DNA of 36,431 nucleotides from Dehalococcoidales bacterium (GCA_030628245.1 DAOVRI010000001.1:1-36431), one strand, 5' to 3'. Positions 2,137 to 32,082 are shown, numbered from the stretch's first letter. Numbers and translations: made by a program. Notes: generated by a model not told the origin, from the sequence alone.

Positions 2137-2141
2137 AAACC

Positions 2142-10396: not shown

Positions 10397-10426
10397 TCCA
10401 AATTAGATAAGGTGAGTAGGTGAAAA

Positions 10427-11689: not shown

Positions 11690-11710
11690 AAAAAGTTAAA
11701 GGAGATAGCG

Positions 11711-13189
11711 ATGAGCATACCTAGAGAAGCTTATCAGACACTGCAATCTATTGTCGGACCCGAATGGGTTAGCGACGACCCGGCAATCTGTGAGGCCGAC
11801 CGCTATTGCAGTCTGTCCAGTCCTTCTGATGAACAACGCAGACCCGGGTGCAGCATCGAACCGGCCAGCACCGAGGAGGTGCAGGCAATCGTCAAGGTAG
11901 CCAACAGGTACAAGATACCCTACGTCTGCACCAGCACTTTCTACAGCGCCGGTACTTATGCCAGAAAGGACGACTCCATCCTCATCGACCTGAAGAGGAT
12001 GAACGAGATTGAGATAGATGAGAAGAACCTGTACGCTATCGTCGGGCCGGGGGTAGCCTTCTCGGCACTTCAGGCCGACCTGCTCAAGAGGGGTCTCATC
12101 ACCTTTGTCCCGGGGTGCGGCGGCAACTCTTCGGTGCTAGCCAATACCGTTAATATGGGTGATGCCCCTATCGGGTGGAGATACGGCCTTGGTTACCAGC
12201 GGTTATTGGGCGTCGAGTGGGTGCTCCCCGATGGTGAGATGCTGAAGATGGGTTCTCTATCGATGTCAGATGATTACTTCTGGGGCGAAGGACCCGGCCC
12301 CGACCTTCGCGGTCTTTTGAGGGGATGCGCCGGGCATCAGTCGAGACTCGGGATTGTCACCAAGATAGGGGTAAAGATATTCCCCTTCGTCTCCGAGGAG
12401 CTTGAGCCGATGGGCTGGGCATTCCATTCGTTCATGAAGCTACCGCCGAACAGGTTTAAGTGGTATAATATCAGGTTCTATTCCCGGGAAGATGCCATCA
12501 ATGCCATGTTTGAAATCGGCAGGTCTGAGATAGGTCTGGTGGTGATGACGGTGCCACCGATATTCCGGAGTGTTGCCAGGACCAGGGGAGTTGGCTGCGG
12601 CGGCTTCTGGGAAGCCTGGAAAGAAAACGGCCCTAAAATTAAGCCGAACCAGGAAGACCTCCGCGTACTGCTGTACGGTATCGGCTCCGACAAGCGCCTG
12701 GAATACGAGGAGAAGGTTTTACTGGACATAGTCAAGGATTTCGGCGGTTCCCCACGTGAAGCTCCCTGTCGCGATGAAACGAATTTCATGGCTGCCGATG
12801 CCATCTGCGCCAACGTTGTCGGGGGCAGGTTCTCTTCCGAGGTATCCTACGAATCCATCAACCAGGCCGTCAGGTACAGCCGGGTTGTTAATGAGATAAC
12901 GGAAAAGTACAAACCTCGGATACTGGAGGACTACGGCACCACGAACTGGGTCTGCCCCTACGAACTGGGCTACATCGCCAAGATGGAATGCCTCCGCATG
13001 TCTTCTGTGGAAAACAGGGATGCACTGGACAAGTGGCACGACGACGTCCACAAGTTTTGTGCTACGGGAGGTGGTTCTACTATATTCCCCGAAGATGAAA
13101 TATTCGGGCCCGTCTGGGGTAACTACCCTGAAAAGGAAGCTAAAATCAGGGCACTCTTCGACCCGAACCATGTTTCCGCCCCTCAATAG
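11711..13189 (+). CDS. FAD-linked oxidase family protein (GlcE-like position, long form), subunit 3 of trio 1
   Basis: 492 aa. N-terminus YQTLQSIVGPEWVSDDP, LLGVEWVLPDGEMLKMGS, and C-terminus IRALFDPNHVS. SD AAAGGAG upstream. Confidence 0.8.
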   Translation: MSIPREAYQTLQSIVGPEWVSDDPAICEADRYCSLSSPSDEQRRPGCSIEPASTEEVQAIVKVANRYKIPYVCTSTFYSAGTYARKDDSILIDLKRMNEIEIDEKNLYAIVGPGVAFSALQADLLKRGLITFVPGCGGNSSVLANTVNMGDAPIGWRYGLGYQRLLGVEWVLPDGEMLKMGSLSMSDDYFWGEGPGPDLRGLLRGCAGHQSRLGIVTKIGVKIFPFVSEELEPMGWAFHSFMKLPPNRFKWYNIRFYSREDAINAMFEIGRSEIGLVVMTVPPIFRSVARTRGVGCGGFWEAWKENGPKIKPNQEDLRVLLYGIGSDKRLEYEEKVLLDIVKDFGGSPREAPCRDETNFMAADAICANVVGGRFSSEVSYESINQAVRYSRVVNEITEKYKPRILEDYGTTNWVCPYELGYIAKMECLRMSSVENRDALDKWHDDVHKFCATGGGSTIFPEDEIFGPVWGNYPEKEAKIRALFDPNHVSAPQ

Positions 13190-19549: not shown

Positions 19550-19646
19550 TAGTCCCACCCATTGCCCCGAGTAAATCCGGACGATGCTTAACGAGAACGG
19601 GCAACGCCGGGCTTACTATGTCTTTTATTTACGGGGAGGATGTAGA

Positions 19647-20222: not shown

Positions 20223-20233
20223 GTCTACTCCTG

Positions 20234-20671
20234 TTACCTCTTAAGAAACGAGCCCAATTTTTCCAGGCGGTTCCCCCTTTTCCTGGCTACCATCGTAAAA
20301 GCCCGGGGAACATCTGCCATCAGAGACCTTGATTGTTCGGCTGCATCCGTATAAAAGTTGATAATCGTCTTTTCTATCTCCACAGCCTGTTTTAAAATAT
20401 CGGCGTAGTCCGTCCCGTCCGGTACCGCCGTCTTTAAGGTGTAGTCGTCCGGGTCGATATTAAACGCAAAACAGCCCTCAATGGCATCGGTGATAACTCC
20501 ATAGTAGGCCCTCTCAACCTGGACTACATTTTTCTTGTTCTCTCCGGCAAAAGAGAGGAAAATCTCGGCATCTTCCGCGTTTCGCTGAGCCAGATTCTCG
20601 TAGAACTCCGCCGAGTCATTTTCGAGTTTCCTGGCAAAGGTGATGCCCTCGGATGCTGTGTGTAATATCAT
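20234..20671 (-). CDS. small ferritin-like / rubrerythrin-fold four-helix protein of unknown function
   Basis: 145 aa. The helical repeat pattern (LENDSAEFYENLA, VQVERAYY, AVEIEKTIINFYTDAA) resembles ferritin-like domains, but no ExxH motifs are visible. It lies 19 nt downstream of the ALDH gene. Confidence 0.4.
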   Translation of the reverse strand: MILHTASEGITFARKLENDSAEFYENLAQRNAEDAEIFLSFAGENKKNVVQVERAYYGVITDAIEGCFAFNIDPDDYTLKTAVPDGTDYADILKQAVEIEKTIINFYTDAAEQSRSLMADVPRAFTMVARKRGNRLEKLGSFLKR

Positions 20672-20690
20672 CTATTTTTTTATTCCCTTA

Positions 20691-22184
20691 TTAAAACCAC
20701 CTTTGAATAACGACCTTGCTTTCCGTGAAGAAGCGAACCGCCTCCCGTCCCTGTGTGTGCAGCACTCCGAAGAATGAATCCTTCATGCCGCTGAACGGGA
20801 AGAAGGCCATCGGCGCGACGATACCGATGTTGATACCGACGTTGCCGCTAATAATGTTGTACTGATACTCTCTGGCGCTTTTGCCACTTGTCGTAAAGAT
20901 GGAGTCGCCATTGCCGTATGGGTTGGCATTGGCAATCTCTATCGCTTCGTTCAGGTCTTTCACCCGTATGACACTCATTACAGGGCCAAAAATTTCTTCG
21001 GAACCTATTCTCATATCCGGTGTGACGTCCTCGAAGATAGTTGGGCCAAGAAAACATGTTTCCGGATAGTCGCCCACAATCTTGATATCTTTTCTGCCAT
21101 CAAGTCTGATTTTCGCCCCCTGTTTTATACCGCTTTCTATATAACTTATGATGTTATCCTTTTTCCCCTTGTCCCGCACCGGCCCCATTTGCACCGATTC
21201 ATCAAGTCCGTAACCAATCTTTATGTTGGAGGTTTGTTCGACAACCCTGTCCATGAAACTCTTGTAGAAGGCGTCGTCTTCACCGACAATAACGGCATTG
21301 GCCGCCGATAGGCATCGCTGACCGGTATTACCGAAAAACGAAGTCATCATGGCCGTCACGGTCCTTTCTACATCGCAGTCGGGCATGATGGTCATGAAGT
21401 TCTTCGCACTAGCCTGAGCAATATACTTCTTGCCTGTCTCACCGCACTTCTTACAAATAACTTCTTTTGCTGTTGAAGTGCGCCCGACGAAGGTTATTCC
21501 CTTAACATCCGGATGCTCCAGCACGCGGCCGACAACAGCTCTTTCGCCATTGACTACGTTCCATACTCCGGGAGGGAAACCGGCTTCTTCCACTAGCTCG
21601 GCCAGTTTCATTTGACTGTTGGGGACCTCCGGCGATGGTTTTACTATCACGCAGTTGCCGGTAGCTACGGCATACGGCGCCGACCAGAGCGGAATCATAA
21701 ACGGGAAGTTGAAAGGACCTATAATACCGAAAACCCCCAGGGGTGTGGGAATTACCCACTCGTCGATGCCATGGGCAATATCCTCGGAATAATATCCCTG
21801 CATTAACGTAGGGATACCGCAGGCGACCTCCACGTTTTCGATGCCGCGCCGGGTCTCGCCCCTCGACTCATCTATGGTCTTGCCATGTTCCTGTGTCTGG
21901 ATTCTGCTGACTTCCTCAAAATTCTCTTCCAGTAACTCTTTCAATCGGTAGAGATACCTCGCCCTGGCTACCGGAGTCGTCCTCCGCCAGTCGGGGAATG
22001 CCGCTTTGGCGGCTTCCACGGCGGCATCCATTTCTTCGCCGGTCGAGATAGGTACTTTAGCAATTGTCTGGTATGTAGCGGGGTTTACCACGTCGACGAC
22101 TTCACCTTTAGATTCCACCCACTCTCCGTCGATATAATTTTTAAGGGTTCTGACCTCTTTTATTGGTTCTTCCAGAAGAGCCAT
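20691..22184 (-). CDS. mmsA: CoA-acylating methylmalonate/malonate-semialdehyde dehydrogenase family aldehyde dehydrogenase
   Basis: 497 aa. LKNYIDGEWVES...VVNPAT, GKTIDESRGETRRGIENVEVACG, catalytic GQRCLSA, and a C-terminal PMAFFPFSGMKDSFFG block characteristic of MmsA/IolA. SD GGAGGAG upstream. Confidence 0.85.
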   Translation of the reverse strand: MALLEEPIKEVRTLKNYIDGEWVESKGEVVDVVNPATYQTIAKVPISTGEEMDAAVEAAKAAFPDWRRTTPVARARYLYRLKELLEENFEEVSRIQTQEHGKTIDESRGETRRGIENVEVACGIPTLMQGYYSEDIAHGIDEWVIPTPLGVFGIIGPFNFPFMIPLWSAPYAVATGNCVIVKPSPEVPNSQMKLAELVEEAGFPPGVWNVVNGERAVVGRVLEHPDVKGITFVGRTSTAKEVICKKCGETGKKYIAQASAKNFMTIMPDCDVERTVTAMMTSFFGNTGQRCLSAANAVIVGEDDAFYKSFMDRVVEQTSNIKIGYGLDESVQMGPVRDKGKKDNIISYIESGIKQGAKIRLDGRKDIKIVGDYPETCFLGPTIFEDVTPDMRIGSEEIFGPVMSVIRVKDLNEAIEIANANPYGNGDSIFTTSGKSAREYQYNIISGNVGINIGIVAPMAFFPFSGMKDSFFGVLHTQGREAVRFFTESKVVIQRWF

Positions 22185-22327
22185 TTTTAAAAACTCCTCC
22201 TTATCAAATTTTACCTGTTCCGGGTATTAATCGCCGTATGCTACCAGTACGTATCAGGGTATATAAATCATGCCTGAATTCCCAGTTTTCCTGTCAAAGA
22301 GGGTTATGCTTACGGTCAGGCACGTTG

Positions 22328-24001
22328 TTACTCAATCGGGTCGTCTAGGGTACGGTAATATCCATCACCGAGGTCATTGGGATTGAAGGTCTCCTTAAAC
22401 TTACGCTGGTAGCGAAACGCCTCCGGTTGCGCCGCCGCCCCGAGTATGCGGTCGCGTATTTCCTTGGGGGTTGTTTTGCCATCGGTCCACCTGGCGTAAT
22501 CGTTCATTTTCTCCATACCGGGACCAAAGCCTTTTTCCATACCGTACTTGTCGGTAGCATTAAAGAATTCGAAGGTTCCTTCCGTTGATGCCTTATCAGC
22601 CGGGTCGAAATGGGTGAAGTTCTCCCAAAGGGCGTGGCCTCCGCCTCCCATACCACCTATTCCTCCCATCATGGCGTCACCACCACAGGCGACAACATTG
22701 CCCTTCTTCTCCCATTCAACCTTGAATGCCGTTGCCTGTTCAACACGCGGTGGTTCTCCAGAAGCCCCGAAGTCCGGAGTCCCTCCCAGTCCGAAACAGC
22801 CGTCATAGCCGCCTCCATAAACGAGGTTCAGATTCTTGTGCCCCAGCCTTATCATGTAAAGTAGAGACCAGTTATACAGGTCGGGTTCCAGCATCGCCTT
22901 TACCTTCCAGCCTCCGGTCTCTTCCAGTATCTTATCCAGAGCTTTGTCCTGCCATTCGATATCCCCCGGGGTCATGCCCGCCAGGACAATCTGGTAATCG
23001 CGCTTCATATCCTCGGTCATTTTCTGTACTTCCGGGTCTTTCAGCAGTTCCTCAATGTCGGAAAGCGTTTTGGTGGGGTCGGACAGTATCCTGACCATGG
23101 CACCCTTCAGGTCTCTGCCGAACATGCTGAACTGCCGGTGAGCGACGTAGCCGATTCCCGCGTCGAAAATCAGGTAACAGGAATCAGCCCACGCCTTCCA
23201 GGCCGGGAAGCCCAGGGTATATACCCTGAAGTTGTCCGGCAGCACCGCTTTGTAGGCGGGCGGCTTCCCCTCGACCGGTAGCGGGGCCGGTCCGGGCCAG
23301 GGGTAGAGTTTGATGGCGCACTTGGTGAATACGCCCATCGCCCCGTTAGTACCTATCATTCCCCGGACGAGTCCTTTCAGACTGGGTCCCGGCCCGTCAC
23401 AGCAGAACCAGCCCAACCCGGAGCCCACCGAGCCTACCCTCAGGACTTCCCCATCAGGCATGACCCATTCCACGCCGAGCAGATTCTCATTGTGATGACC
23501 CATGTAAAGGGTATCCGGTCCAAGTCCTCCCAAGGCAGTAGCACTGGCGAGGCAGGAACAGCTGGCGCCGGGCCCATGGATGTGGGTATTCAGTCCCACC
23601 TTCATCGCTTCAGCCTGAAGTGTCGCCCCGATGACATGCGGCTCAACCACGGCAAAATTGTTCTTATCATCAATCTCCAGGATTCGGTCCATCCGCCTCA
23701 TATCCAGCTGGATGGTGTCATCCTCTAAAGGAAACCCCCAGGCCGACCAGAACGTACTGGAAGGCTTAAATTTTACCCTGTATTTGTTGCATAATTTGAC
23801 GATGCCCTGGACCTCTTCGGCGCTTCCCGGCAGCAGGACAGCCGCCCCCCTGGGCGTGTATACCCGGTAATAGGGGCCGATGTGAATGGCGGTATGAGAC
23901 AGCGGGTACCGGTAACAATCCAATAATGCCGGGTCGTCGGATATGTTCTCCTTGCCCACAATTCCTTCTAGTTCCCGATAGGCTTCTCTCGATAGTGCCA
24001 T
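22328..24001 (-). CDS. FAD-linked oxidase family protein, subunit 3 of trio 2 (paralog of 11711-13189)
   Basis: 557 aa. YRELEGIVGKENISDDP and LLGVEWVMPDGEVLRVGS are collinear with the 492-aa paralog. It carries an extra Gly/Met-rich segment, GGDAMMGGIGGMGGGGH. Confidence 0.8.
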   Translation of the reverse strand: MALSREAYRELEGIVGKENISDDPALLDCYRYPLSHTAIHIGPYYRVYTPRGAAVLLPGSAEEVQGIVKLCNKYRVKFKPSSTFWSAWGFPLEDDTIQLDMRRMDRILEIDDKNNFAVVEPHVIGATLQAEAMKVGLNTHIHGPGASCSCLASATALGGLGPDTLYMGHHNENLLGVEWVMPDGEVLRVGSVGSGLGWFCCDGPGPSLKGLVRGMIGTNGAMGVFTKCAIKLYPWPGPAPLPVEGKPPAYKAVLPDNFRVYTLGFPAWKAWADSCYLIFDAGIGYVAHRQFSMFGRDLKGAMVRILSDPTKTLSDIEELLKDPEVQKMTEDMKRDYQIVLAGMTPGDIEWQDKALDKILEETGGWKVKAMLEPDLYNWSLLYMIRLGHKNLNLVYGGGYDGCFGLGGTPDFGASGEPPRVEQATAFKVEWEKKGNVVACGGDAMMGGIGGMGGGGHALWENFTHFDPADKASTEGTFEFFNATDKYGMEKGFGPGMEKMNDYARWTDGKTTPKEIRDRILGAAAQPEAFRYQRKFKETFNPNDLGDGYYRTLDDPIE

Positions 24002-24019
24002 GTCTCAATCCTTCCGTTG

Positions 24020-25291
24020 TTATATTGCCTGTTTGACGAGGTCGGTAACATCAAAGACCTTCAATTTTTCGCCAGCGGCATTAATGGCATCGATAAAGTT
24101 CCGCTCACACCACGGGCAGGCGCTCACTATTGCCTCAGCGCCGGTGGACTTCGCCTCCTCAATCCTTTCCGTAGCCGTCCAGCTGGAAAAGTCAGGGTAG
24201 GCTTCTTTTACCCCACCCCCGGCGCCACAGCACCAGGCATACTCCCTGATTCTCTCCATCTCCACCAGTTCCAGACCGGGGATACTCTTAAGCACGTCTC
24301 TCGGCGGGTCATAGACACCCCAGGCCCCGTTGTACCTCGGCCTTCTCGGCTCATAGACCACTATTTGATTCTTGACTTTCTTCTCTTTGCCTTCCCAGGG
24401 TACATAGGGCTCTCCCTGACGGCCCAGATGACAGGGGTCGTGGTAGGTAACGCGCATGGGTATAGTTTTGCTGAACTTAATCTTGCCTTCCTTAATCAGG
24501 CGGTCGAAATACTGCACGGTATGGAGAATCTCGAACTTCGCTCCCAGGGGAGGATAAAGGCGTGAAAAGGCGCGAAAGCAATCGGCGCAGGGGGTTACCA
24601 CCGTCTTGACACCGGCCGCAGTCCAGGCCTTGATAGTATTCTCCGCAAGCCTGGTGAATTCTTCTTTATAGCCCATGTCATAGGCTCTGCCGCCGCAACA
24701 GGACTCGTCTACCCCCATGATGCCGATATCAACGCCGGCATTTTTAAGAAGGGTTACGGCCGACCTGGCTGTTTCCTGCAGTTCTTCATCGTAGCTGAAC
24801 CGGCAGCCGGCATAGAAGAGCACTTCCGCCGACTCACCGGGGATACGCTTGACGTCCAGGCCTTCAGCCCAATCGCCGCGGTTGGCTCCGGATTTCATCA
24901 TCATGTTGTTTTCTTTACCGAGATGCTCGATAACAGCGGTAAGCTGCGGCAGCACCTGACCATCCTCAACCAGCCTGAATTTTAACTCATGTATCATCTC
25001 CAGCGGTTCCAAGTTGTAGCGGCAAATCTTATCGGAAACGTCACAGGACCCGCAGGTCGTGCATTTATAAACTATATCCACCACCCTATCGGAATAAGTG
25101 CTCTGGCCGTTCAGGAGCGACAGGGCGACAGCGTACCTGCCGCGCGCGGAGTAACTCAGGAAGTTATTATAGGCAATACTGGGACATCCCTTGGCAAACC
25201 TCCAGCTCTTTACCTGGTCAAATGGAATCCACTTGCAGTACGAGCACTGGCTGCACCTCTCCATATCAACTTTATAGTCTTCTAGCGCCAA
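24020..25291 (-). CDS. (Fe-S)-binding protein, GlcF/HdrD-like, both CCG domains intact (paralog of 10427-11689)
   Basis: 423 aa with a TTG start. CSQCSYC...CP and CTTCGSC motifs. CCG domain 1 reads AGCRF, SCCGG, TPCADC. CCG domain 2 reads YHDPCHLGR, WCCGAGGG, SACPWC. Confidence 0.85.
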   Translation of the reverse strand: MALEDYKVDMERCSQCSYCKWIPFDQVKSWRFAKGCPSIAYNNFLSYSARGRYAVALSLLNGQSTYSDRVVDIVYKCTTCGSCDVSDKICRYNLEPLEMIHELKFRLVEDGQVLPQLTAVIEHLGKENNMMMKSGANRGDWAEGLDVKRIPGESAEVLFYAGCRFSYDEELQETARSAVTLLKNAGVDIGIMGVDESCCGGRAYDMGYKEEFTRLAENTIKAWTAAGVKTVVTPCADCFRAFSRLYPPLGAKFEILHTVQYFDRLIKEGKIKFSKTIPMRVTYHDPCHLGRQGEPYVPWEGKEKKVKNQIVVYEPRRPRYNGAWGVYDPPRDVLKSIPGLELVEMERIREYAWCCGAGGGVKEAYPDFSSWTATERIEEAKSTGAEAIVSACPWCERNFIDAINAAGEKLKVFDVTDLVKQAI

Positions 25292-25325
25292 TTTCTGATG
25301 CCTTCTTTCTTTGTTTTTCTTGCGC

Positions 25326-26789
25326 TTAAAAGCATAGCTTACCCGGGTTCATCACGTTGTTGGGGTCGAATATTCCCTTAAGCTTCTTTAGTACCATCGT
25401 AGTCTGCGCATCCCGACCGTATGCCAGATCTGCCCAGATGCCATAGGGTCGCGAGAAGAAAGCCCCCTGCTCAATCAGCTCTTCACTGGCTATAGTCAGG
25501 AGCTGCTGCATCCTGGTTGCCTCTTCCGGATTGTCCCGGTCGAAGGGGAGGATAAACTCGCAATGGACATTGGCTCCCTGGTGCAGCGGCTGGATGTAAA
25601 CGCCGATATCCGAGGCCGGGTACCCGCTTGCTTCGGCCACCGAGTTCATTGTCTTGATAAATTCCGGCGTCCTGTTGAGGGTGGTCAGGAAGAGGATATC
25701 CTGGTATCCCCCCTTTAAGTCGAGTTTCCAGTAGGGCTCCCGGGACGGGTTGAGTATCGCTTTCAGTACTTCATCGCTCCCGGCTCCGGGGATTTCCGAC
25801 ACGAGCTGCTGGCCGAATTTCCCGGCAATATCCGCGATGTCCTTCTCCTGATACGCAACCCTTTCCTCGGGGAGTATACTGCGTCCGGCTATGCCCACCA
25901 GGACAACCCAGGGTGGGAGTTCTTTCATCAGGGCTTTGATATGGTCGGCTCCGTTTCCAAGGATAGCTGCCAGGCTCGCGTTGTTCAATAACAAAAGCTC
26001 GTCGGCAAATCTGAACTTCAGGAGCTGGTAAGTAAAATCAAGCAGGTCATCAGGCCTCTGGGCCGGCACGAAGAAGAGCTTGTGGAGGGCGGGTAATATC
26101 TCGCATTTTACCGATGCCCAGGTCACAATGCCCATGCTCCCCTGGGCGGCGGAAACAAACCTGTAGAAATCCGCCTGCCCCGGACCCGTAGCACCTGCCG
26201 GGGCCTGTTTCCTCTCCCAGGCCTCTTCAAATGAGGACCAGTTACCGGCGTCGCCGGTTACCAGCTTGTGACCGTCTCCCCAGATAATTTCATTACATCG
26301 CAACGGGTCGAGTGACGCCCACAGTTGCCGGGGAATCAGGGTAGGCTCCCTCTCCAGGAGACTGGCTACCACCGACTTGCTGGCCCGCGGGAGCAACGGC
26401 GTCGTAAGCCTCAGGCCTTCCCTGGCCAGTTCTGGCTGGAGTTCGGAGTAGGTTACCCCCGGCTCAACCATTGCCACCCTGTTTCTGCGGTCAATCCTCA
26501 TGACCTTCTTCATTCCGCTCAGGTCTACGATGACCGCTCCCGGTACGCCGGGAACAGTATCACCGTGGAAGCGCGGCGGCCCCGAACTCACCGGAACCAG
26601 CGGTGTGGCAGTCTGATTAGCCCACCTGACCAGCGCCTGAACCTCATCAGCGCTCCCGGGCTTTACCACTACCCGGGGTTTCACAGGTTTGACGAAGCTA
26701 AAATCCCTGGAATAGGCGTCCAACGTTTCAGGGTCATCAAAAACATTTTCCGAACTCACGATACCGGCCAATTCTTCTTTTAAAGCCAT
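25326..26789 (-). CDS. FAD-linked oxidase (GlcD-like), subunit 1 of trio 2 (paralog of 8936-10396)
   Basis: 487 aa. IVSSENVFDDPE, LEREPTLIP, and the C-terminal FDPNNVMNPGKLCF. SD GGAGGAAGG upstream. Confidence 0.85.
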   Translation of the reverse strand: MALKEELAGIVSSENVFDDPETLDAYSRDFSFVKPVKPRVVVKPGSADEVQALVRWANQTATPLVPVSSGPPRFHGDTVPGVPGAVIVDLSGMKKVMRIDRRNRVAMVEPGVTYSELQPELAREGLRLTTPLLPRASKSVVASLLEREPTLIPRQLWASLDPLRCNEIIWGDGHKLVTGDAGNWSSFEEAWERKQAPAGATGPGQADFYRFVSAAQGSMGIVTWASVKCEILPALHKLFFVPAQRPDDLLDFTYQLLKFRFADELLLLNNASLAAILGNGADHIKALMKELPPWVVLVGIAGRSILPEERVAYQEKDIADIAGKFGQQLVSEIPGAGSDEVLKAILNPSREPYWKLDLKGGYQDILFLTTLNRTPEFIKTMNSVAEASGYPASDIGVYIQPLHQGANVHCEFILPFDRDNPEEATRMQQLLTIASEELIEQGAFFSRPYGIWADLAYGRDAQTTMVLKKLKGIFDPNNVMNPGKLCF

Positions 26790-26964
26790 CCTTCCTCCGC
26801 CTACTCCTTTCAGATATTTAATGCCCTATTCTCAAGTCTTTATATGGTCTGTGATGGTCATTTTTAATCACGTTCATCTGCAGCGGGAGATACTTGACTG
26901 GACTGCAACAAAACGATAGTGTGGTGTTTTCGAGTACTTTTTGGACAAATGCTCAAGCTATGAA

Positions 26965-26994
26965 ATTGTACACACCGATATTGGTATTTGTCAA
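26965..26994 (-). promoter_or_regulatory. sigma70-like promoter candidate (TTGACA-18-TACAAT) for the trio 2 operon
   Basis: On the minus strand, TTGACA is at 26994-26989 and TACAAT at 26970-26965. Motif match only. Confidence 0.3.
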
Positions 26995-27052
26995 ACCACT
27001 TCATTCCGCCAACTGAAGTTAAAAATTAAGTAGAACCTGGCAATCAGATGGG

Positions 27053-27081
27053 TTGACCAGGTGACCTTGTGGGTTTATAAT
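27053..27081 (+). promoter_or_regulatory. sigma70-like promoter candidate (TTGACC-17-TATAAT) for the lipoprotein gene
   Basis: TTGACC at 27053-27058, an exact 17-nt spacer, and TATAAT at 27076-27081, about 40 nt upstream of the start codon. Confidence 0.45.
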
Positions 27082-27119
27082 TCATGTAATCTTAAAAAGT
27101 CACGTGGGAGGAAATGAAT

Positions 27120-27608: not shown

Positions 27609-27632
27609 GTAGCTTTCAGGAGTAGTAATAAC

Positions 27633-27679
27633 GGCAAAATGCTGGGGCCCCTGAATAAGAGGTTCCCCAGCATTTTGCC
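27633..27679. terminator. bidirectional hairpin terminator between convergent genes
   Basis: Perfect 15-bp inverted repeat GGCAAAATGCTGGGG / CCCCAGCATTTTGCC with a 17-nt loop, located between the lipoprotein stop (27608) and the UbiD stop (27701). The U-tracts are weak. Confidence 0.55.
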
Positions 27680-27700
27680 TGTATAACCCATGTTGTACTG

Positions 27701-29155
27701 TTACAGGTTGTATTCCTTCCATCTCCTCTTCACCAGTTCCTCGGTCTCCGGCCGAGAATAGTGACATTTCGGAGGAAATCTCTGATTACCCCACTCCGCG
27801 CGCACGGGGTGGAGCTCCCAATCCGTAGTGGCATCGATCAGTAGTTTACTGGCTACGGCCGCCCCGTATTCAAGTTCCGCCCTCAGGTCATAGGCGACGC
27901 TGACGTCAATAGGCGACCCCATATATAAGGGGTAGACAACCAGGTCCCTGTCAAAATCCACCTTATTGTGCATGGCGCCCATGAGCGCCGCGGGGTTGCG
28001 AATGTCCACATCCTCTTCCACTACCATCAATATATTGAAGGGGTGACCGGCGAACTTGGAGCCCCATAAGGCAGCGGCTATTTGCCTCGGCTGTCCCTGA
28101 TACGTTTTATGAATTTTAACCGCTGATATCGGCCCCGTGGTAACATCAAGCACTCCGGGAATTTCGTGGGCTTCCAGGGTATTCCAGTTAACCACCGACA
28201 TCATAGTACTGACGGCTGCCCTTATCTCGGTAACGCCTTCTCTGGTACCCACCAGAGAACCACGGTAAATGGCATCGTTTCTGTGGGTGATGCAGCTGAC
28301 TTCCACCACCGGTCTCTTTCTCGCTTCCCCGTAAAACCCTGACCCCTCACCGAAGGGCCCTTCTATTTCGTAAGTGCTTGGGTCAGGGGACATAGTGCCC
28401 TCAACCACTATTTCGGCGGATGCGGGCACTTCAATATCGGAAGTCTCACATTTAACAAGCTCGACAGGCTCCTGCCTCAGCGCCCCGACCAGTTCATACT
28501 CAGGCCCGATAACAGGGCTGCCGGCGACAACTATTAAGGTGGGGTCCCAGCCGTAGACGAATGCCACGGGCATGGGTTTGCCCATCTCCTGGTACTTACT
28601 ATAAGTGATACCCCAGTCCTTCATTGGCATCAAAAGCACGCCTATCTTGTTCTTACTTAATATCGTGCCCCGGTAAACACCTGCATTGTTTTGCCCGGTA
28701 TCGGGGTTCCTAGTGACGGTAGCGTTAAATGTGTTGATATAGCGTCCGTTATCAAGCGGGTGCCACTTGGGGACCGGGAGCTGGAAAAGGTCCACGTCTT
28801 CACCCTTAACGATGTTTTCCTTGACCGGCCCCGTTTTGACCTTCACCGTCTCCAAAGGCTTCTTCATCCTGTTTCTAATCGTCTGAATAGTCTCTGTAGT
28901 GGGCGTATCTTTGGGCAGGCCGAGCATGAGGTTGACACGGGAGCGCGTTCCCAGGCCATTGGTAAAAAGCTTTCTGGAAAGCGTAGCTTCGTGGTCTTTG
29001 ATATTCTCAAATAGAAGCGCCGGGCCTTCTTGTACATAGACCTTTCTTATGATTTGAGATATCTCGTCATCCCAGTCCACCCTGGCTGTTACTCTCTTTA
29101 ACTCACCCTCAGCATCCAGCTGGGCCATCCATGCTCGCAAGTCTCTATCTGGCAC
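27701..29155 (-). CDS. UbiD-family (prFMN-dependent) reversible aromatic/enoic acid decarboxylase
   Basis: 484 aa with a GTG start 8 nt after AGGAGG. Shows the UbiD layout and the characteristic EGPFGEGSGFYG block. Confidence 0.9.
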   Translation of the reverse strand: MPDRDLRAWMAQLDAEGELKRVTARVDWDDEISQIIRKVYVQEGPALLFENIKDHEATLSRKLFTNGLGTRSRVNLMLGLPKDTPTTETIQTIRNRMKKPLETVKVKTGPVKENIVKGEDVDLFQLPVPKWHPLDNGRYINTFNATVTRNPDTGQNNAGVYRGTILSKNKIGVLLMPMKDWGITYSKYQEMGKPMPVAFVYGWDPTLIVVAGSPVIGPEYELVGALRQEPVELVKCETSDIEVPASAEIVVEGTMSPDPSTYEIEGPFGEGSGFYGEARKRPVVEVSCITHRNDAIYRGSLVGTREGVTEIRAAVSTMMSVVNWNTLEAHEIPGVLDVTTGPISAVKIHKTYQGQPRQIAAALWGSKFAGHPFNILMVVEEDVDIRNPAALMGAMHNKVDFDRDLVVYPLYMGSPIDVSVAYDLRAELEYGAAVASKLLIDATTDWELHPVRAEWGNQRFPPKCHYSRPETEELVKRRWKEYNL

Positions 29156-29198
29156 TGTTTTACCTCCTGAAATATGAAAATCTCAACCCGTTAAGAAC

Positions 29199-30533
29199 CT
29201 ATTTATATATACCGTATTCCTTGGTAAAATCAATCATTGCTTTAAGGTTTTCTGGCTTGACCCTGTCAATGGCAGCCCCATTGGCCATGATATAACCGCC
29301 GCCGGGGGCGCAGGTATCGATGAGCTGGCGGCATCTTTCCTTCACCTGCTCGGTTGTGCCGGTAATCAGCAGCGAGGAAGACACGTTGCCACTTATGCAG
29401 GCAACATCACCCAGTATTTTCTTCACCCTGGCCATGTCTGTCACGTCGAACGTCCATGCAGTCTTGGCTTTAGGCACGTCCCTGATAACTTCCAGACGCG
29501 AGTTATAGCTGCCCTCAACAAAGGGAAACGGTACGCAGCCCTCTTCAATCAAGCCCATGAAAACCTTTCTCAAGGTGGGCCAGTAGTAGGTCTTGAACTG
29601 TTCATCGGAGAGGAAACCGTCGGCCCCTTTATGCAGCGGCATAAACACCAGGGGATTTCCGTTCATCTTTGACATGGACACCCCCATCTTAATCATGAAC
29701 GGCGTTATTACCTCCAGAGCCTGGAGGAGTTTGGCGGGCTGCCGATACATATCCACCATTACCCCTTTGGTGCCTCTGAGAGTATCACCAATAACATCAA
29801 AAGGTGCCTTGGCAAGGCCACCGAGGAAGCCGGGAAATCCGGCGGCGGCCATCTCATGACTGAAACCACTGACAACCCCCATCCATTTCATGGTTTCAGC
29901 CCCTGCCTCAAAAAGAGTTTTATAGGCAGCCTGAACGTCGGGCATAGCGAACGGCATGACAAAAGCACCGAACGAACCCTCCTGGACGTTGGTGGGACTT
30001 TGCAGCATCTTCAAGGGCTCCAGGGCTCCGCATATGCGAGGTAAGTAGGTGCTGTTCCAGAAATGTGACGGGTCCTGAATCAAGGCCTCATATTCATCCG
30101 CCATCATGTATTCGCCTTCAATGCACTGGTAGGTATTTTCGGGCGCGACTCCATGCCCGGGCCAGGCATATAACTTGACGTCAAGAATTTCAAAGAGCCT
30201 TCCCGAGCCAGCGAAAAACGCGCCTGGGTTCACATCCGGCTCGAAGTCCAGGACGTATTTCCTGATGGTGGTGGTGAGCTTTTCGTAGTCATACATCATA
30301 TCATGAGGGGTCAGGCCTGCATAGTAAGCGGGGAAAAAGTTAACAATGTTAAAGATAGGCACCCTGTCCGGCGTTTTCTTCAACTGGACCGCATCTTTTA
30401 CCCGTGTTACTCTCTCCTTGTATGACTTCTCGGCCTCGGGGCTGGTAAACTCTATGCCCTGTGGCGAAAGCCACGAATCAAACATCGCCTCCTGCTTTTC
30501 ATCCAGTAATAACCCCGCCTGTTGCTCTTCCAT
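29199..30533 (-). CDS. uroporphyrinogen-decarboxylase (URO-D) fold protein, either MtaA/CmuA-like methyltransferase or decarboxylase
   Basis: 444 aa. N-terminal PDRVPIF motif and C-terminal PGGGYIMANGAAID block, both typical of the URO-D family. SD GGGAGG upstream. Lies 43 nt upstream of the UbiD gene. Confidence 0.7.
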   Translation of the reverse strand: MEEQQAGLLLDEKQEAMFDSWLSPQGIEFTSPEAEKSYKERVTRVKDAVQLKKTPDRVPIFNIVNFFPAYYAGLTPHDMMYDYEKLTTTIRKYVLDFEPDVNPGAFFAGSGRLFEILDVKLYAWPGHGVAPENTYQCIEGEYMMADEYEALIQDPSHFWNSTYLPRICGALEPLKMLQSPTNVQEGSFGAFVMPFAMPDVQAAYKTLFEAGAETMKWMGVVSGFSHEMAAAGFPGFLGGLAKAPFDVIGDTLRGTKGVMVDMYRQPAKLLQALEVITPFMIKMGVSMSKMNGNPLVFMPLHKGADGFLSDEQFKTYYWPTLRKVFMGLIEEGCVPFPFVEGSYNSRLEVIRDVPKAKTAWTFDVTDMARVKKILGDVACISGNVSSSLLITGTTEQVKERCRQLIDTCAPGGGYIMANGAAIDRVKPENLKAMIDFTKEYGIYK

Positions 30534-30678
30534 TTTTGTTTACCTCCCGTACATTTTTTGCAGGGATTTTTTACTTAACGCCTGCCCCTTTTTCGGCAAG
30601 CAATACCACTAATACTACGAGGCCCGGGATAATGCACTCTCCACTGGCAAAACGGCTTCCTGCATCGCCCTTGTCAGA

Positions 30679-30707
30679 ATATTACATAGGCGGCACCTGG
30701 CTGTCAA
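30679..30707 (-). promoter_or_regulatory. sigma70-like promoter candidate (TTGACA-17-TAATAT) for the URO-D-like/UbiD operon
   Basis: On the minus strand, TTGACA is at 30707-30702 and TAATAT at 30684-30679. Motif match only. Confidence 0.35.
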
Positions 30708-30830
30708 TTCTCCATCCCAGAGCCAGGCATTAGCCACCCGAGAGGCGGGCCATACACCACCATCTATAATAGTTATCGACTGTCATTACCGGCCAAGCGC
30801 CCCAGTCGATACATAGTTTGATTAACTCTA

Positions 30831-30872
30831 TGAAAGAAAAGGCTCCGGAGGCAGTAAACCCTCCGAAGCCTT
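30831..30872 (-). terminator. Rho-independent terminator after dctP
   Basis: The minus-strand RNA forms a 13-bp stem AAGGCUUCGGAGG / CCUCCGGAGCCUU (one G-U pair) with an 8-nt loop, followed by UUUUCUUUCA. It begins 26 nt after the dctP stop. Confidence 0.7.
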
Positions 30873-30897
30873 TCTATCCCGCTAATAGTCTGAAGGC

Positions 30898-32082
30898 TTA
30901 TTTCTGAGTGGTATATTCTTCTATCAGAGACTTCCAGGTCGCGAGGACCCTGTCGGTAACCTCTTCGCTGTAACCCAGGTCATGACACATATCTGCCCAG
31001 GTAGGAAACGCGTATGTTACAGCTGCTTCATCCCACAGGGCCGACTGCTCCGGGGTGGGGGTGTTGATAGTGATGCCCGATTCTATAATAGCGGGTTCAC
31101 TATGTACGGTCTCGTCATACATACCCTGGGCGCATACTATCAAGGCATCTTCCCAAGTAGCATCGAATATCGCCTGGTCTTCCGGCGGCAGGGAGTCATA
31201 GAATTCGTGGCTCGTCAGGATGAGCAGGGTCCCGGCGCCGAAGGTCTGTTTCAAGATGTAGTCACAAAGTTCGAACATGTTGTAAGGGCCTATCATGGCA
31301 TAGGTCATGATAGCGGCATCGGTTACCCCTTTCTGCATGTTATCGTACGCCTGAGGAGGTATCTGGAAGACGCCGGCAGCGCCGAAAGCACTCATCATAT
31401 CTGCCAGAGCGCCCAGTGCCCCGCCGACCTTGAGGCCTTCAAGGTCTTCCGGCACGATTACCTCTTTATTCGCACTAATAAGGTAACCCGGGTCTATTGC
31501 AAGGGCTTTAATCAAATGATAGGGTTCGAACTCGGCTGCAACTTCCGGTACCTTATAGAATTCTTTCACGGCATCGAATGATGCGAGGAACTCCTCCATG
31601 CTAACACCCTTCTTGTGAAACGACAGCGTGGGGAGATCGCCAACCGCGGCTAATGGGAAATCGGCCATTTTGCTTCCGGTAGAGGTCATGACGATTTCAC
31701 AGACACCTTGTTTTACCGCGTCCAGAGAGCCTGCATCGTCTAATAAGGCCGAAAATCCATAAGTCTCCACGATGTAGCGACCGTCCGTCCGTTTCTCAAA
31801 CTCATCCGCCCACCACTCGTAGCCCACACCTACGGCTGAAAACGGGGGCATCGTGTAGTTAAATTTAATCGTCCTGACCTCTGGCGCTGGTGCTGGTTCC
31901 GGTGCCGGAGCTGGTGCTGGCTTTTCTGGTTCCGGAGCTGGTGCTGGAGCTGGTGCTGGCTTTTCCGGTGCTGGTGCTGGTGCCGGGGCTGGTGCCGGGG
32001 CTGGCTCGGCACAGGCAGACAGTAGCAGCGATGCCAGTAAAACTACAGTGAGTACTGCAATCATCCAGTTTCTTTTCTTCAT
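30898..32082 (-). CDS. dctP: TRAP transporter solute-binding protein (DctP-type), lipoprotein with Pro-Ala-rich tether
   Basis: 394 aa. Signal peptide with lipobox LLSAC, a 44-residue (PA)n/EK linker, then a DctP-like periplasmic-binding domain. SD AAGGAGG upstream. Divergent from dctQM. Confidence 0.8.
   Translation of the reverse strand: MKKRNWMIAVLTVVLLASLLLSACAEPAPAPAPAPAPAPEKPAPAPAPAPEPEKPAPAPAPEPAPAPEVRTIKFNYTMPPFSAVGVGYEWWADEFEKRTDGRYIVETYGFSALLDDAGSLDAVKQGVCEIVMTSTGSKMADFPLAAVGDLPTLSFHKKGVSMEEFLASFDAVKEFYKVPEVAAEFEPYHLIKALAIDPGYLISANKEVIVPEDLEGLKVGGALGALADMMSAFGAAGVFQIPPQAYDNMQKGVTDAAIMTYAMIGPYNMFELCDYILKQTFGAGTLLILTSHEFYDSLPPEDQAIFDATWEDALIVCAQGMYDETVHSEPAIIESGITINTPTPEQSALWDEAAVTYAFPTWADMCHDLGYSEEVTDRVLATWKSLIEEYTTQK
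31879..32010 (-). repeat. in-frame GC-rich tandem repeat encoding the Pro-Ala(-Glu-Lys) linker of DctP
   Basis: The plus strand shows reiterated GCTGGTGCTGG units, including two near-identical GGAGCTGGTGCTGGCTTTTC(T/C)GG copies. It translates to AEPAPAPAPAPAPAPEKPAPAPAPAPEPEKPAPAPAPEPAPAPE. Confidence 0.85.

What the first reader, a model, noticed from the sequence alone, without database searches (positions are those of the whole stretch)
22328..26789. Second, diverged copy of the FAD/Fe-S/FAD trio in inverted orientation, extended by a CoA-acylating semialdehyde dehydrogenase
Seen:
- The same gene order, subunit 1 (487 aa), Fe-S protein (423 aa), subunit 3 (557 aa), is read on the minus strand.

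Shared blocks with trio 1:
- LEREP(M/T)LIP.
- A C-terminal LKK(V/L)K..FDPNN(I/V)M(S/N)PG(R/K)LCF.
- VTYHDPC(N/H)LGR.
- LLGVEWV(L/M)PDGE(M/V)L(K/R)(M/V)GS.

Divergence and context:
- The DNA is clearly diverged, so this is an old duplication and not a recent repeat.
- Subunit 3 of this copy is 65 aa longer and carries a Gly/Met-rich stretch, GGDAMMGGIGGMGGGGH (nt 22634-22684), absent from the paralog.
- After a 143-nt gap the operon continues with an MmsA/IolA-type dehydrogenase.
- The two trios are transcribed convergently and bracket the AbfD/ADH/hydrolase/Mo/UbiX core.

Inference: these are two substrate- or acceptor-specialised versions of one complex. Each is coupled to an aldehyde- or alcohol-level enzyme: Fe-ADH with trio 1, MmsA-like with trio 2.
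Basis: partly seen in the sequence, partly recalled or inferred. Interest (0 to 1): 0.7.

Follow-up and report, generated by a model that had tools for sequence, protein, structure and literature searches.

The report
Second flavin/iron-sulfur dehydrogenase trio with aldehyde dehydrogenase
The window really carries two old, diverged copies of an uncharacterised three-protein flavin/iron-sulfur enzyme, with the same architecture as the complex recently proposed to start anaerobic benzene breakdown, and the second copy belongs to a widespread subgroup that repeatedly sits next to aldehyde-oxidising enzymes.

Summary
On the minus strand, 25326-26789, 24020-25291 and 22328-24001 encode FAD protein (487 aa), Fe-S protein (423 aa) and FAD protein (557 aa). 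They are 38/38/33% identical to trio 1. A 143-nt gap separates them from a genuine MmsA/IolA-type CoA-acylating dehydrogenase.

The two trios are not a local duplication. A neighbour-joining tree puts them on opposite sides of the deepest split of a large family found in at least 491 species genomes.

An aldehyde dehydrogenase lies beside the trio in 16 of 49 loci of this subgroup and 0 of 33 other loci. A conserved alcohol dehydrogenase plus aldehyde:ferredoxin oxidoreductase pair flanks others.

Trio 2 keeps both HdrB-type cysteine motifs. Trio 1 has lost one.

The architecture matches the 2026 "Magic"/BzS1_12970-90 flavoprotein of benzene degraders. It is not GlcDEF: the GlcD active-site motif is replaced and subunit 3 is not GlcE.

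The most likely function is a cytoplasmic dehydrogenase that makes an aldehyde for the neighbouring enzyme. The substrate is unresolved.

The parts
25326..26789 (-). Trio 2 subunit 1: two-domain VAO/PCMH-fold flavoprotein, 487 aa
   Evidence: It carries FAD_binding_4 and FAD-oxidase_C. The AF2 model has pLDDT 75, and the best Foldseek matches are 4-phenol-oxidising VAO/PCMH enzymes at TM 0.75-0.79. The motif R447-P448-Y449 is invariant in 69 of 69 family members and replaces GlcD's G-E-H.
24020..25291 (-). Trio 2 Fe-S subunit, HdrD/GlcF-like, 423 aa, TTG start
   Evidence: It carries Fer4_8 and two CCG domains. All 18 cysteines are present: two ferredoxin-type motifs and two complete five-cysteine CCG motifs.
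22328..24001 (-). Trio 2 subunit 3: second full-length VAO-fold protein, 557 aa
   Evidence: Pfam sees only FAD_binding_4. hhalign against the subunit-1 family gives E 6e-43 over the full length. The AF2 model (pLDDT 74) matches VAO/PCMH and LDHD folds. It is at least 57% identical across Dehalococcoidia, Anaerolineae, Spirochaetota and Desulfatiglandaceae.
22634..22684 (-). Gly/Met-rich loop GGDAMMGGIGGMGGGGH (residues 440-456) of subunit 3
   Evidence: It is conserved as GGD[AC]MMG.IGG.GGGG...WENF in orthologs from several phyla. It aligns with the subunit-1 loop YIQPLHQGANVHCE. That subunit-1 loop in turn aligns with the GlcD loop HAGDGNMH. It is absent from trio 1.
22185..22327 (.). 143-nt spacer between subunit 3 and the aldehyde dehydrogenase
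   Evidence: It ends in GGAGG eight nt before the ATG. The scan of 19500-27800 found no terminator-like site on the minus strand within the spacer.
20691..22184 (-). CoA-acylating methylmalonate/malonate-semialdehyde dehydrogenase (MmsA/IolA type), 497 aa
   Evidence: TIGR01722 scores 502.7 bits against a cut-off of 448.5. B. subtilis MSDH (1T90) scores 452 bits over the full length, while the best non-MSDH aldehyde dehydrogenase scores 237 bits. The R-C, RGIENVE and AKN motifs are conserved.
20234..20671 (-). 145-aa helical protein of unknown function, co-conserved with the dehydrogenase
   Evidence: Only a sub-threshold ferritin-like Pfam hit was found. It lies next to the MSDH ortholog in 14 loci, including loci in the inverted arrangement.
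26965..26994 (-). Promoter-like site upstream of trio 2
   Evidence: TTGACA-18-TACAAT matches 11 of 12 positions. Promoter-like sites are not enriched over shuffled sequence in this region.
27701..32082 (-). Co-directional upstream genes: UbiD-family decarboxylase, URO-D/MtaA-like protein, TRAP solute-binding protein
   Evidence: Assignments come from Pfam and NCBIfam. The order DctP-UROD-UbiD-trio 2-ALDH-p145 is conserved in Dehalococcoidales relatives L009-L013 and L018.
8936..13189 (+). Trio 1: paralogous FAD / Fe-S / FAD genes (486, 420, 492 aa)
   Evidence: Domain content and pairwise identities are. The first CCG motif is degenerate. The conserved context is thiolase-ACAD-ACAD-FAD_binding_2-M24-CoA transferase-trio 1-Mo enzyme.

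Best explanation
Trio 2 encodes a cytoplasmic three-subunit flavin/iron-sulfur dehydrogenase. It belongs to the uncharacterised VAO/PCMH-fold family that also holds the 'Magic'/BzS1_12970-90 proteins of anaerobic benzene degraders. Subunits 1 and 3 are full-length paralogous flavoprotein folds. The HdrD-like subunit, with two ferredoxin-type and two intact CCG cluster motifs, carries electrons away to an unidentified acceptor. I infer that the complex oxidises a hydroxyl-bearing (or benzylic) carbon of an imported organic acid to an aldehyde. The aldehyde is taken over by the co-transcribed CoA-acylating semialdehyde dehydrogenase, or in other phyla by an alcohol dehydrogenase plus aldehyde:ferredoxin oxidoreductase pair. 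For this window the most likely substrate is a 3-hydroxy acid (3-hydroxypropionate or 3-hydroxyisobutyrate), giving (methyl)malonate semialdehyde and then acetyl- or propionyl-CoA plus CO2. I put that substrate at about 0.3 and the general mechanism at 0.55. Trio 1 is an anciently diverged sister complex. It has a reduced Fe-S module and is embedded in a different, CoA-thioester-centred gene set. Shown: gene content, folds, motifs, conserved gene neighbourhoods. Inferred: subunit assembly, direction of electron flow, substrate, acceptor.
For: - Architecture and tight spacing: the gaps between the three genes are 34 and 18 nt.
- The order subunit 1 - Fe-S - subunit 3 is kept in nearly all of about 85 loci from bacteria and archaea.
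- Both flavoprotein models match VAO/PCMH and LDHD folds. Subunit 3 aligns with subunit 1 over the full length, E 6e-43.
- A conserved catalytic core exists in subunit 1: SRPYG in 69 of 69 sequences and H409 in 67 of 69.
- The Fe-S subunit has all 18 cysteines.
- No transmembrane or signal segments were found.
- Aldehyde link: an aldehyde dehydrogenase lies beside the trio in 16 of 49 Gly-loop loci and 0 of 33 others, p = 1e-4. It appears downstream and co-directional in L009-L018, L022, L024, L028, L042 and L051, and divergent upstream in L043, L045, L047 and L048.
- A Zn-ADH plus AOR (plus C_GCAxxG) module, 72-82% identical across phyla, flanks the trio in other loci. L022 carries ADH-AOR-GCAxxG-trio-MSDH-p145 in one array.
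- The dehydrogenase keeps the MSDH-specific Arg-Cys pair, the RGIENVE arginine and Asn in place of the general-base Glu (residue roles from my knowledge of B. subtilis MSDH). This points to a beta-carboxylated aldehyde.
- Subunit 3 is the most conserved subunit within the ortholog group: 64% against 51% for subunit 1. It is the most diverged between subgroups: 37.5% against 49%. That pattern fits a specificity-determining role.
Against: - No member of the family has been assayed, so the chemistry is inferred from context alone.
- No VAO/PCMH enzyme known to me oxidises 3-hydroxy acids.
- Recurrent UbiD and URO-D/MtaA-like (plus B12-binding) neighbours, and the closest structural matches, point to phenolic or methoxy-aromatic substrates instead.
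- FAD binding by subunit 3 is uncertain. Its pyrophosphate-loop region is shortened (SST---FWSA against SSGPPRFHGDT) and modelled at low confidence.
- No electron acceptor is encoded nearby.
- Many loci are cut by contig ends, so the adjacency counts are lower bounds and include related species.
Confidence: 0.55

Rival explanations
1. Trio 2 is an oxygen-independent, Fe-S-linked counterpart of the 4-phenol-oxidising VAO/PCMH enzymes. It would hydroxylate or dehydrogenate the benzylic position of lignin-derived phenols, for example vanillyl or syringyl alcohol or 4-alkylphenols, to aromatic aldehydes. AOR or an aldehyde dehydrogenase then oxidises the aldehyde. O-demethylation (URO-D/B12), decarboxylation (UbiD/UbiX) and a pyrogallol-transhydroxylase-like Mo enzyme follow.
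For: - The best profile and fold matches of subunit 1 are vanillyl-alcohol dehydrogenase, eugenol oxidase, 4-ethylphenol oxidase and PCMH: E about 1e-27 against 1e-20 for LDHD, and TM 0.75-0.79.
- The invariant Arg447 and Tyr449 lie in the segment that aligns with the EYRT stretch of vanillyl-alcohol dehydrogenase 8s7t. I take that stretch, from memory, to be the phenolate-binding Tyr-Arg pair of VAO.
- URO-D/MtaA-like neighbours occur in 8 of 49 loci and UbiD in 9 of 49. L002 also has a B12-binding protein.
- The window has UbiD, UbiX and an AthL homolog scoring 471 bits against 4V4C.
- Holophaga foetida, which I recall as a degrader of methoxylated aromatics, carries a member.
Against: - The phenolate triad is not conserved in order or position. 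Phe-Phe aligns with the Tyr-Arg pair, and His75 sits at the position I take to be VAO Tyr108.
- The MSDH-type neighbour with both carboxylate-binding arginines has no obvious role with aromatic aldehydes.
- LDHD scores almost as well in fold search.
- Aromatic-catabolism neighbours may simply share a catabolic island.
Confidence: 0.2
2. Trio 2 is an ordinary GlcDEF-type D-2-hydroxyacid (glycolate or D-lactate) dehydrogenase, as the automatic 'glycolate oxidase' labels say.
For: - It has the same subunit composition as GlcDEF.
- hhalign of the subunit-1 family against E. coli GlcD gives probability 97% and 23% identity over the full length.
- The Fe-S subunit is weakly similar to GlcF, E 6e-6.
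- JGI names homologs 'glycolate oxidase'.
- A GntR/FCD regulator lies next to the Desulfatiglandaceae copy.
- Glyoxylate, the product of glycolate oxidation, is itself an aldehyde.
Against: - GlcD's SGEHG motif, whose Glu and His I recall as metal ligand and catalytic residue in this enzyme class, is SRPYG in all 69 family members.
- NCBIfam GlcD scores are 49-68 bits against cut-offs of 568-897.
- Subunit 3 is a 557-aa full VAO fold with no meaningful match to the 350-aa GlcE, probability 10.8%.
- The gene order is D-F-E rather than D-E-F.
Confidence: 0.1
3. Trio 2 works like the proposed benzene-activating 'Magic'/BzS1 flavoprotein. It would be a flavin-based radical or electron-bifurcating/confurcating machine that activates an unreactive C-H bond or couples a substrate to a co-substrate.
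For: - The gene order, domain content and sizes match: 487/423/557 aa here against 488/431/at least 577 aa in BzS1.
- Two flavoprotein subunits plus an Hdr-like subunit is a layout compatible with bifurcation.
- Trio 1 sits among CoA-transferase, AbfD-like and beta-oxidation genes, much as the Magic trio sits among CoA-ester enzymes.
Against: - Both papers state that distant homologs in non-benzene degraders probably have other functions.
- The Magic neighbours (AMP-ligase, hot-dog hydratase, class III CoA-transferase, BamQ) are absent.
- The Fe-S cysteine pattern differs. ORM2a Protein #25 has a degenerate second CCG motif; trio 2 has none degenerate; trio 1 has a degenerate first motif.
- The benzene mechanism itself is unproven.
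Confidence: 0.07

Closest known systems
BzS1_12970/80/90 (Musat et al. 2026, PMC13416013) and 'Magic' Proteins #24-26 of Ca. Anaerobenzenivorax ORM2a (Toth et al. 2026, PMC13101534)
   Same: The three-gene order is FAD protein - Fe-S protein - FAD protein. The first protein has FAD_binding_4 and FAD-oxidase_C, and the third has FAD_binding_4 only. The middle protein has Fer4 plus two CCG motifs. Sizes are similar. Both are predicted to be cytoplasmic heterotrimers, and neither has a characterised relative.
   Different: Sequence identity could not be measured because the benzene-clade sequences were not obtainable. The papers report 23-42% identity for non-benzene homologs. The neighbours differ, the Fe-S cysteine degeneration pattern differs, and the host is a Dehalococcoidales MAG with no link to benzene.
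Escherichia coli glycolate dehydrogenase GlcDEF
   Same: It has two FAD_binding_4 subunits plus a Fe-S subunit with Fer4 and two CCG motifs. Subunit 1 is a detectable GlcD homolog.
   Different: The gene order differs. The active-site motif is SGEHG in GlcD and SRPYG here. GlcE (350 aa) is not matched by the 557-aa subunit 3. All NCBIfam scores are far below the cut-offs.
4-phenol-oxidising VAO/PCMH flavoenzymes (vanillyl-alcohol dehydrogenase 8S7P, eugenol oxidase 5FXD, 4-ethylphenol oxidase 7PBG, p-cresol methylhydroxylase 1DII)
   Same: They are the best structural and profile matches for both flavoprotein subunits, with the two-domain fold.
   Different: Identity is 18-22%. The electron partner is an HdrD-like Fe-S protein, not O2 or a c-type cytochrome. 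The phenolate-binding triad is not conserved as such.
Bacillus subtilis methylmalonate-semialdehyde dehydrogenase IolA/MmsA (PDB 1T90), as the nearest relative of the downstream gene
   Same: The match covers the full length at 452 bits. The Arg-Cys pair, the second substrate arginine and Asn in place of the general-base Glu are conserved.
   Different: Here it is paired with a 145-aa orphan protein and a flavin/Fe-S trio, not with inositol or valine catabolic genes.

Membership tests
GlcDEF glycolate dehydrogenase | Three subunits: two FAD_binding_4 proteins plus a Fe-S protein with Fer4 and two CCG domains | tested here: met
   Pfam domains of the three proteins.
GlcDEF glycolate dehydrogenase | GlcD active-site motif S-G-E-H-G (Glu and His roles from my knowledge of this enzyme class) | tested here: not met
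   hhalign places SRPYG opposite GlcD SGEHG. R-P-Y is invariant in 69 of 69 family members.
GlcDEF glycolate dehydrogenase | Curated equivalog scores for GlcD and GlcF | tested here: not met
   TIGR00387 scores 49.4 and 68.4 bits against a cut-off of 567.9. The GlcF model scores 25.6 against 333.
GlcDEF glycolate dehydrogenase | Short GlcE-type second flavoprotein and gene order D-E-F | tested here: not met
   Subunit-3 family against GlcE gives probability 10.8% over 70 columns. The order here is D-F-E, against glcD-glcE-glcF in E. coli.
'Magic'/BzS1_12970-90 heterotrimeric flavoprotein family (broad sense) | Syntenic FAD - Fe-S - FAD genes, with the C-terminal FAD-oxidase domain recognised only in the first protein | tested here: met
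   compared with the descriptions.
'Magic'/BzS1 benzene core clade | At least 60% identity to the ORM2a or BzS1 subunits | not tested
   The sequences (WAC08368-70, MCD6261936-38) could not be fetched. The single genome scan kept only the 80 closest loci.
'Magic'/BzS1 benzene core clade | Neighbouring AMP-ligase, hot-dog hydratase, class III CoA-transferase pair and BamQ | tested here: not met
   The window genes are listed. None of these neighbours lies next to either trio.
'Magic'/BzS1 benzene core clade | Fe-S subunit with a degenerate second CCG motif (2 of 5 Cys) and 7 of 8 N-terminal Cys | tested here: not met
   Trio 2 has 18 of 18 cysteines. Trio 1 loses the first CCG motif instead (against the Fig. 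S13 legend).
VAO/PCMH 4-phenol-oxidising subfamily | Two-domain VAO fold | tested here: met
   Foldseek gives TM 0.75-0.79 for subunit 1 and 0.62-0.65 for subunit 3.
VAO/PCMH 4-phenol-oxidising subfamily | Phenolate-binding Tyr/Tyr/Arg triad and a covalent His or Tyr flavin link (from my knowledge of VAO and PCMH) | tested here: inconclusive
   A low-confidence HMM alignment puts Phe-Phe opposite the Tyr-Arg pair. The invariant Arg447 and Tyr449 lie three residues further on. H409 aligns with a His of 8S7T.
HdrB/HdrD CCG proteins | Two five-cysteine CCG motifs | tested here: met
   Trio 2 has C163, C198, C199, C235, C238 and C287, C354, C355, C392, C395. In trio 1 the first motif is D, S, S, D, C.
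CoA-acylating (methyl)malonate-semialdehyde dehydrogenase, for 20691-22184 | TIGR01722 above its cut-off, plus Arg-Cys, the second arginine and Asn replacing the general-base Glu | tested here: met
   TIGR01722 scores 502.7 bits against 448.5. The alignment to 1T90 shows the three motifs.

The most novel reading that the evidence does not exclude
The Gly-loop clade (trio 2 type) is a previously unrecognised, multi-phylum class of oxygen-independent flavin/Fe-S dehydrogenases. Its members generate aldehydes, either from 3-hydroxy acids or from lignin-derived phenols. In this class the variable active-site loop of the third subunit, not subunit 1, sets the chemistry. If so, the benzene 'Magic' enzyme would be one specialised offshoot of a general substrate-activating platform. 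The cultured Holophaga foetida would then offer a tractable model for the whole family.
Probability: 0.3. Interest if true: 0.75.

Novelty: new variant of a known kind. Interest (0 to 1): 0.6.

Why it matters
Two 2026 proteogenomic papers single out a FAD/Fe-S/FAD heterotrimer as the best candidate for the long-sought anaerobic benzene-activating enzyme. [quoted passage not shown]

This window shows that the architecture belongs to a very large family: at least 491 species genomes, and 211 clusters at 50% identity (E-value at most 1e-30). The family has clearly separable subgroups:
- They differ in the Fe-S cofactor set.
- They differ in a loop of the third subunit.
- They have different conserved partner enzymes.

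The trio 2 subgroup brings three useful things:
- a testable functional hook, the co-conserved aldehyde-oxidising enzymes;
- a family-wide signature, SRPYG in place of GlcD's SGEHG;
- a cultured host, Holophaga foetida DSM 6591.

It also corrects the routine 'glycolate oxidase' annotation carried by many of these proteins.

Tried and rejected
- I could not obtain the BzS1, ORM2a, Pelotomaculum or NaphS2 sequences for a direct comparison.
  - Ten length-matched cluster representatives gave Actinomycetota, Geothermincolia, Sphingobium and Christensenellaceae, or no name at all.
  - The supplements of both papers hold accession tables but no sequences.
- Literature searches for a characterised member, or for the ADH/AOR/MSDH context, found nothing beyond the two 2026 papers. 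One search was rejected for syntax.
- Rfam found nothing in the window.
- The promoter and terminator scans were not above shuffled expectation.
- PDB sequence searches gave no close solved relative for any subunit.
- I rejected 'recent repeat', because DNA similarity is limited to short patches of about 70% identity.
- I rejected 'the Gly/Met stretch is low-complexity noise or an insertion', because it is conserved across phyla and replaces a loop of equal length.
- I rejected 'membrane complex', because no hydrophobic segment was found.
- I considered a C_GCAxxG_C_C protein as the disulfide partner of the CCG subunit. It flanks the trio in eight fetched loci, six after removing duplicate fetches, but it was not among the Pfam matches of the window's major ORFs.

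Full report
**Observation**

The window is a metagenome contig: ENA ERZ23498673, scaffold_317, 41.7 kb. Its closest genome relative is a Dehalococcoidales MAG, N3_157, at 96% identity for subunit 3.

The minus strand carries three tightly spaced genes.
- 25326-26789 encodes subunit 1, 487 aa, with FAD_binding_4 and FAD-oxidase_C.
- 24020-25291 encodes the Fe-S protein, 423 aa, TTG start, with Fer4_8 and two CCG domains.
- 22328-24001 encodes subunit 3, 557 aa, with FAD_binding_4 only.

Trio 1 (8936-13189, plus strand) has the same order and domains. DNA similarity is reduced to a few patches of about 70% identity.

The Gly/Met stretch is residues 440-456, which is nt 22634-22684. A 143-nt spacer with a GGAGG site precedes the next gene. 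That gene is a genuine MmsA/IolA-type enzyme.
- TIGR01722 scores 502.7 bits against a cut-off of 448.5.
- B. subtilis MSDH (1T90) scores 452 bits over the full length.
- The Arg-Cys pair, the RGIENVE arginine and Asn in place of the general-base Glu are conserved.

A 145-aa orphan protein follows 19 nt later. One correction applies: the Gly/Met stretch replaces a loop of equal length and is not what makes the protein longer.

**What the proteins are**

Profile comparison shows that subunit 3 is a full-length paralog of subunit 1, E 6e-43 over 445 columns. AlphaFold models of both have pLDDT 74-75. They match the two-domain VAO/PCMH fold.
- The best hits are 4-phenol-oxidising enzymes: vanillyl-alcohol dehydrogenase, eugenol oxidase, 4-ethylphenol oxidase and PCMH.
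- TM-scores are 0.75-0.79 for subunit 1 and 0.62-0.65 for subunit 3.
- Mouse D-lactate dehydrogenase follows closely.

Against E. coli GlcD, fetched, the subunit-1 family aligns end to end at 97% probability and 23% identity. However, GlcD's SGEHG motif is SRPYG here. R447-P448-Y449 is invariant in 69 of 69 family sequences, and H409 is present in 67 of 69.

Subunit 3 has essentially no similarity to GlcE, probability 10.8%. The Fe-S protein is only distantly like GlcF, 21% identity and E 6e-6. The widespread 'glycolate oxidase' label is therefore not justified. None of the six trio proteins has a hydrophobic segment or a signal peptide.

**Fe-S subunits differ**

Trio 2 keeps all 18 cysteines: two ferredoxin-type motifs and two complete five-cysteine CCG motifs. 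Trio 1 and its orthologs in L007, L008 and L015 replace four of the five cysteines of the first CCG motif with D, S, S and D. In the benzene degrader ORM2a it is the second CCG motif that is degenerate, with 2 of 5 cysteines left. The electron-output module has thus been remodelled independently in different subgroups.

**Size and structure of the family**

- A full HMMER scan found 211 clusters at 50% identity at E-value at most 1e-30 for subunit 3, and 774 at 1e-10.
- A scan of GTDB species genomes found at least 491 genomes with relatives. They include Dehalococcoidia, Anaerolineae, Spirochaetota, Desulfobacterota, Actinomycetota, Bacillota, Holophaga foetida DSM 6591, Bathyarchaeia, Asgard archaea and Ca. 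Methanolliviera.
- Among the 80 closest loci plus ten others, the order subunit 1 - Fe-S - subunit 3 is almost universal.

The Gly-rich loop divides the family.
- 49 loci carry GGD..MG......GGGG...E[NQ]F.
- 33 loci carry a DD..DN.WGG.YE......H.EE loop.
- Trio 1 types carry a third form.

In a neighbour-joining tree of 124 subunit-3 sequences rooted on subunit 1 and GlcD, the trio 1 and trio 2 clades are each monophyletic. Their common ancestor is the root of the sample (no bootstrap was run). Consistent with this, trio 2 subunit 1 is 44-57% identical to archaeal and actinobacterial homologs but only 38% identical to trio 1. The duplication is as old as the family, not a lineage-specific event.

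**Synteny**

- Trio 2 with the upstream DctP-UROD-UbiD genes and the downstream MSDH-p145 genes is conserved in Dehalococcoidales (L009-L013, L016-L018).
- Both trios occur together, convergently, in L015 and L017.
- L009/L010 keep the whole core but lack trio 1 and Fe-ADH. There the CoA-transferase directly abuts AbfD.
- L007 and L008 carry trio 1 in a conserved array: thiolase, two acyl-CoA dehydrogenases, FAD_binding_2, M24, CoA-transferase, trio 1, Mo enzyme. Trio 2 is absent from these loci.
- A Spirochaetota MAG (L037) has two Gly-loop trios in tandem with an aldehyde dehydrogenase between them.
- L059 has two subunit-3 genes in tandem.
- Several MAGs carry two or three separate loci.

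Paired trios are therefore common, but the two modules are separable.

**Functional clue**

An aldehyde dehydrogenase lies beside the trio in 16 of 49 Gly-loop loci and 0 of 33 others, Fisher p = 1e-4.
- MSDH orthologs at 66-98% identity occur in Dehalococcoidales, Anaerolineales, other Chloroflexota and one Bathyarchaeia MAG.
- They appear downstream and co-directional in some loci and upstream and divergent in others. In 14 loci they are accompanied by p145.
- Holophaga and the Spirochaetota MAG L037 carry aldehyde dehydrogenases about 42% identical to the window's beside the trio. The L037 gene is among the 16 counted. The Holophaga gene is split into two ORFs and was missed by the count.

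In Anaerolineales, Spirochaetota and Desulfatiglandaceae the trio is instead flanked by a Zn-alcohol dehydrogenase plus aldehyde:ferredoxin oxidoreductase pair, often with a C_GCAxxG_C_C protein. These are 72-82% identical across phyla. L022 has ADH-AOR-GCAxxG-trio-MSDH-p145 in one array. URO-D/MtaA-like genes (once with a B12-binding protein) and UbiD genes also recur.

Within the WENF-type ortholog group (below 80% identity), subunit 3 is more conserved than subunit 1, 64% against 51%. Between subgroups it is the most diverged, 37.5% against 49%. This hints that subunit 3 sets specificity.

**Interpretation**

I conclude that trio 2 is a cytoplasmic flavin/Fe-S dehydrogenase whose reaction is tied to an aldehyde.

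The neighbouring MSDH retains both arginines that, in B. subtilis MSDH, bind the substrate's carboxylate. This is established knowledge of that enzyme, and the residues are seen. The simplest pathway is therefore 3-hydroxy acid, then (methyl)malonate semialdehyde, then acyl-CoA plus CO2. ADH and AOR could supply the hydroxy acid from a diol where they are present.

The main rival is a phenolic substrate, that is an anaerobic VAO/PCMH analogue. The fold matches and the UbiD, URO-D and AthL-like neighbours favour it.

A classical GlcDEF role is unlikely because of the motif replacement. A benzene-type radical or bifurcating role cannot be excluded but has no specific support here.

**Relation to what is known**

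Musat et al. 2026 (PMC13416013) and Toth et al. 2026 (PMC13101534) describe BzS1_12970/80/90 and 'Magic' Proteins #24-26. These have the same gene order, domain pattern and sizes, and make up about one fifth of the detected proteome on benzene. The authors note distant syntenic homologs (23-42% identity) in non-benzene degraders that 'likely serve other metabolic functions'.

Both trios fit that broad family by architecture. I could not obtain the benzene-clade sequences to measure identity. Neither paper describes the Gly-loop subgroup, its aldehyde-enzyme partners, the SRPYG signature or the differing CCG degeneration. No biochemical characterisation of any member was found.

**Verdict**

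The finding is real. It is a new variant within a very recently recognised, still uncharacterised kind of enzyme. Interest is moderately high because it gives comparative and experimental handles on a family at the centre of an open question.

Noticed in passing
window 16907-19549 (+): The 880-aa Mo enzyme is a full-length homolog of the large subunit of Pelobacter pyrogallol-phloroglucinol transhydroxylase (4V4C, 471 bits, E 7e-140). It has no Tat-like N-terminus. No beta-subunit gene was seen among the window's annotated ORFs. L007 has a Fer4_11/CarboxypepD_reg protein of 272 aa 3.3 kb downstream of its copy.
   Followed up: partly
window 442-8799 and 13218-16797 (+); L007, L008: Trio 1 sits in a conserved array: DUF35/thiolase, two acyl-CoA dehydrogenases, an M24 creatinase-like protein, a FAD_binding_2 protein and a 4-hydroxybutyrate-type CoA-transferase. 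Then come trio 1, the Mo enzyme, an AbfD-like dehydratase and Fe-ADH. This looks like an unassigned anaerobic catabolic pathway built around CoA esters.
   Followed up: partly
L009/L010 (JGI Ga0209427_10000026, 116 kb): An 84%-identical relative keeps the whole cluster but lacks trio 1 and Fe-ADH, so the CoA-transferase directly abuts AbfD. It is a natural one-trio version of the locus.
   Followed up: yes
window 27114-27608 (+): A chagasin-family (I42) peptidase-inhibitor lipoprotein gene is inserted, on the opposite strand, between UbiD and trio 2. It is present only in the closest relatives (L011-L013, L018) and absent from L009, L015 and L017.
   Followed up: partly
L002, L005, L021, L022, L025, L027, L029: A Zn-ADH / AOR / C_GCAxxG_C_C module is 72-82% identical across Anaerolineales, Spirochaetota and Desulfatiglandaceae and lies next to the trio. 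This suggests horizontal spread of a larger cassette. The C_GCAxxG protein could be a redox partner of the CCG subunit.
   Followed up: partly
L056 (Holophaga foetida DSM 6591, NZ_KI912269.1 350686-372305): A cultured bacterium carries a Gly-loop trio at 51/57/44% identity. It is followed by an aldehyde dehydrogenase split into two ORFs (11834-12763 and 12693-13433). An IS21 IstB gene lies further downstream.
   Followed up: partly
L037 and L059: L037 (Spirochaetota) has two Gly-loop trios in tandem with an aldehyde dehydrogenase between them. L059 (Dehalococcoidia) has two subunit-3 genes in tandem after one subunit 1 and one Fe-S gene.
   Followed up: no
window 14599-15897 (+): The longest Fe-ADH ORF (TTG at 14599) overlaps the end of AbfD by 86 nt. 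The gene called on the source contig is 396 aa, which puts the likely start at 14707.
   Followed up: partly
window 20234-20671 (-): The 145-aa helical protein matches no curated family; it has only a sub-threshold ferritin-like hit. It travels with the MSDH ortholog in 14 loci, whatever the orientation relative to the trio.
   Followed up: partly
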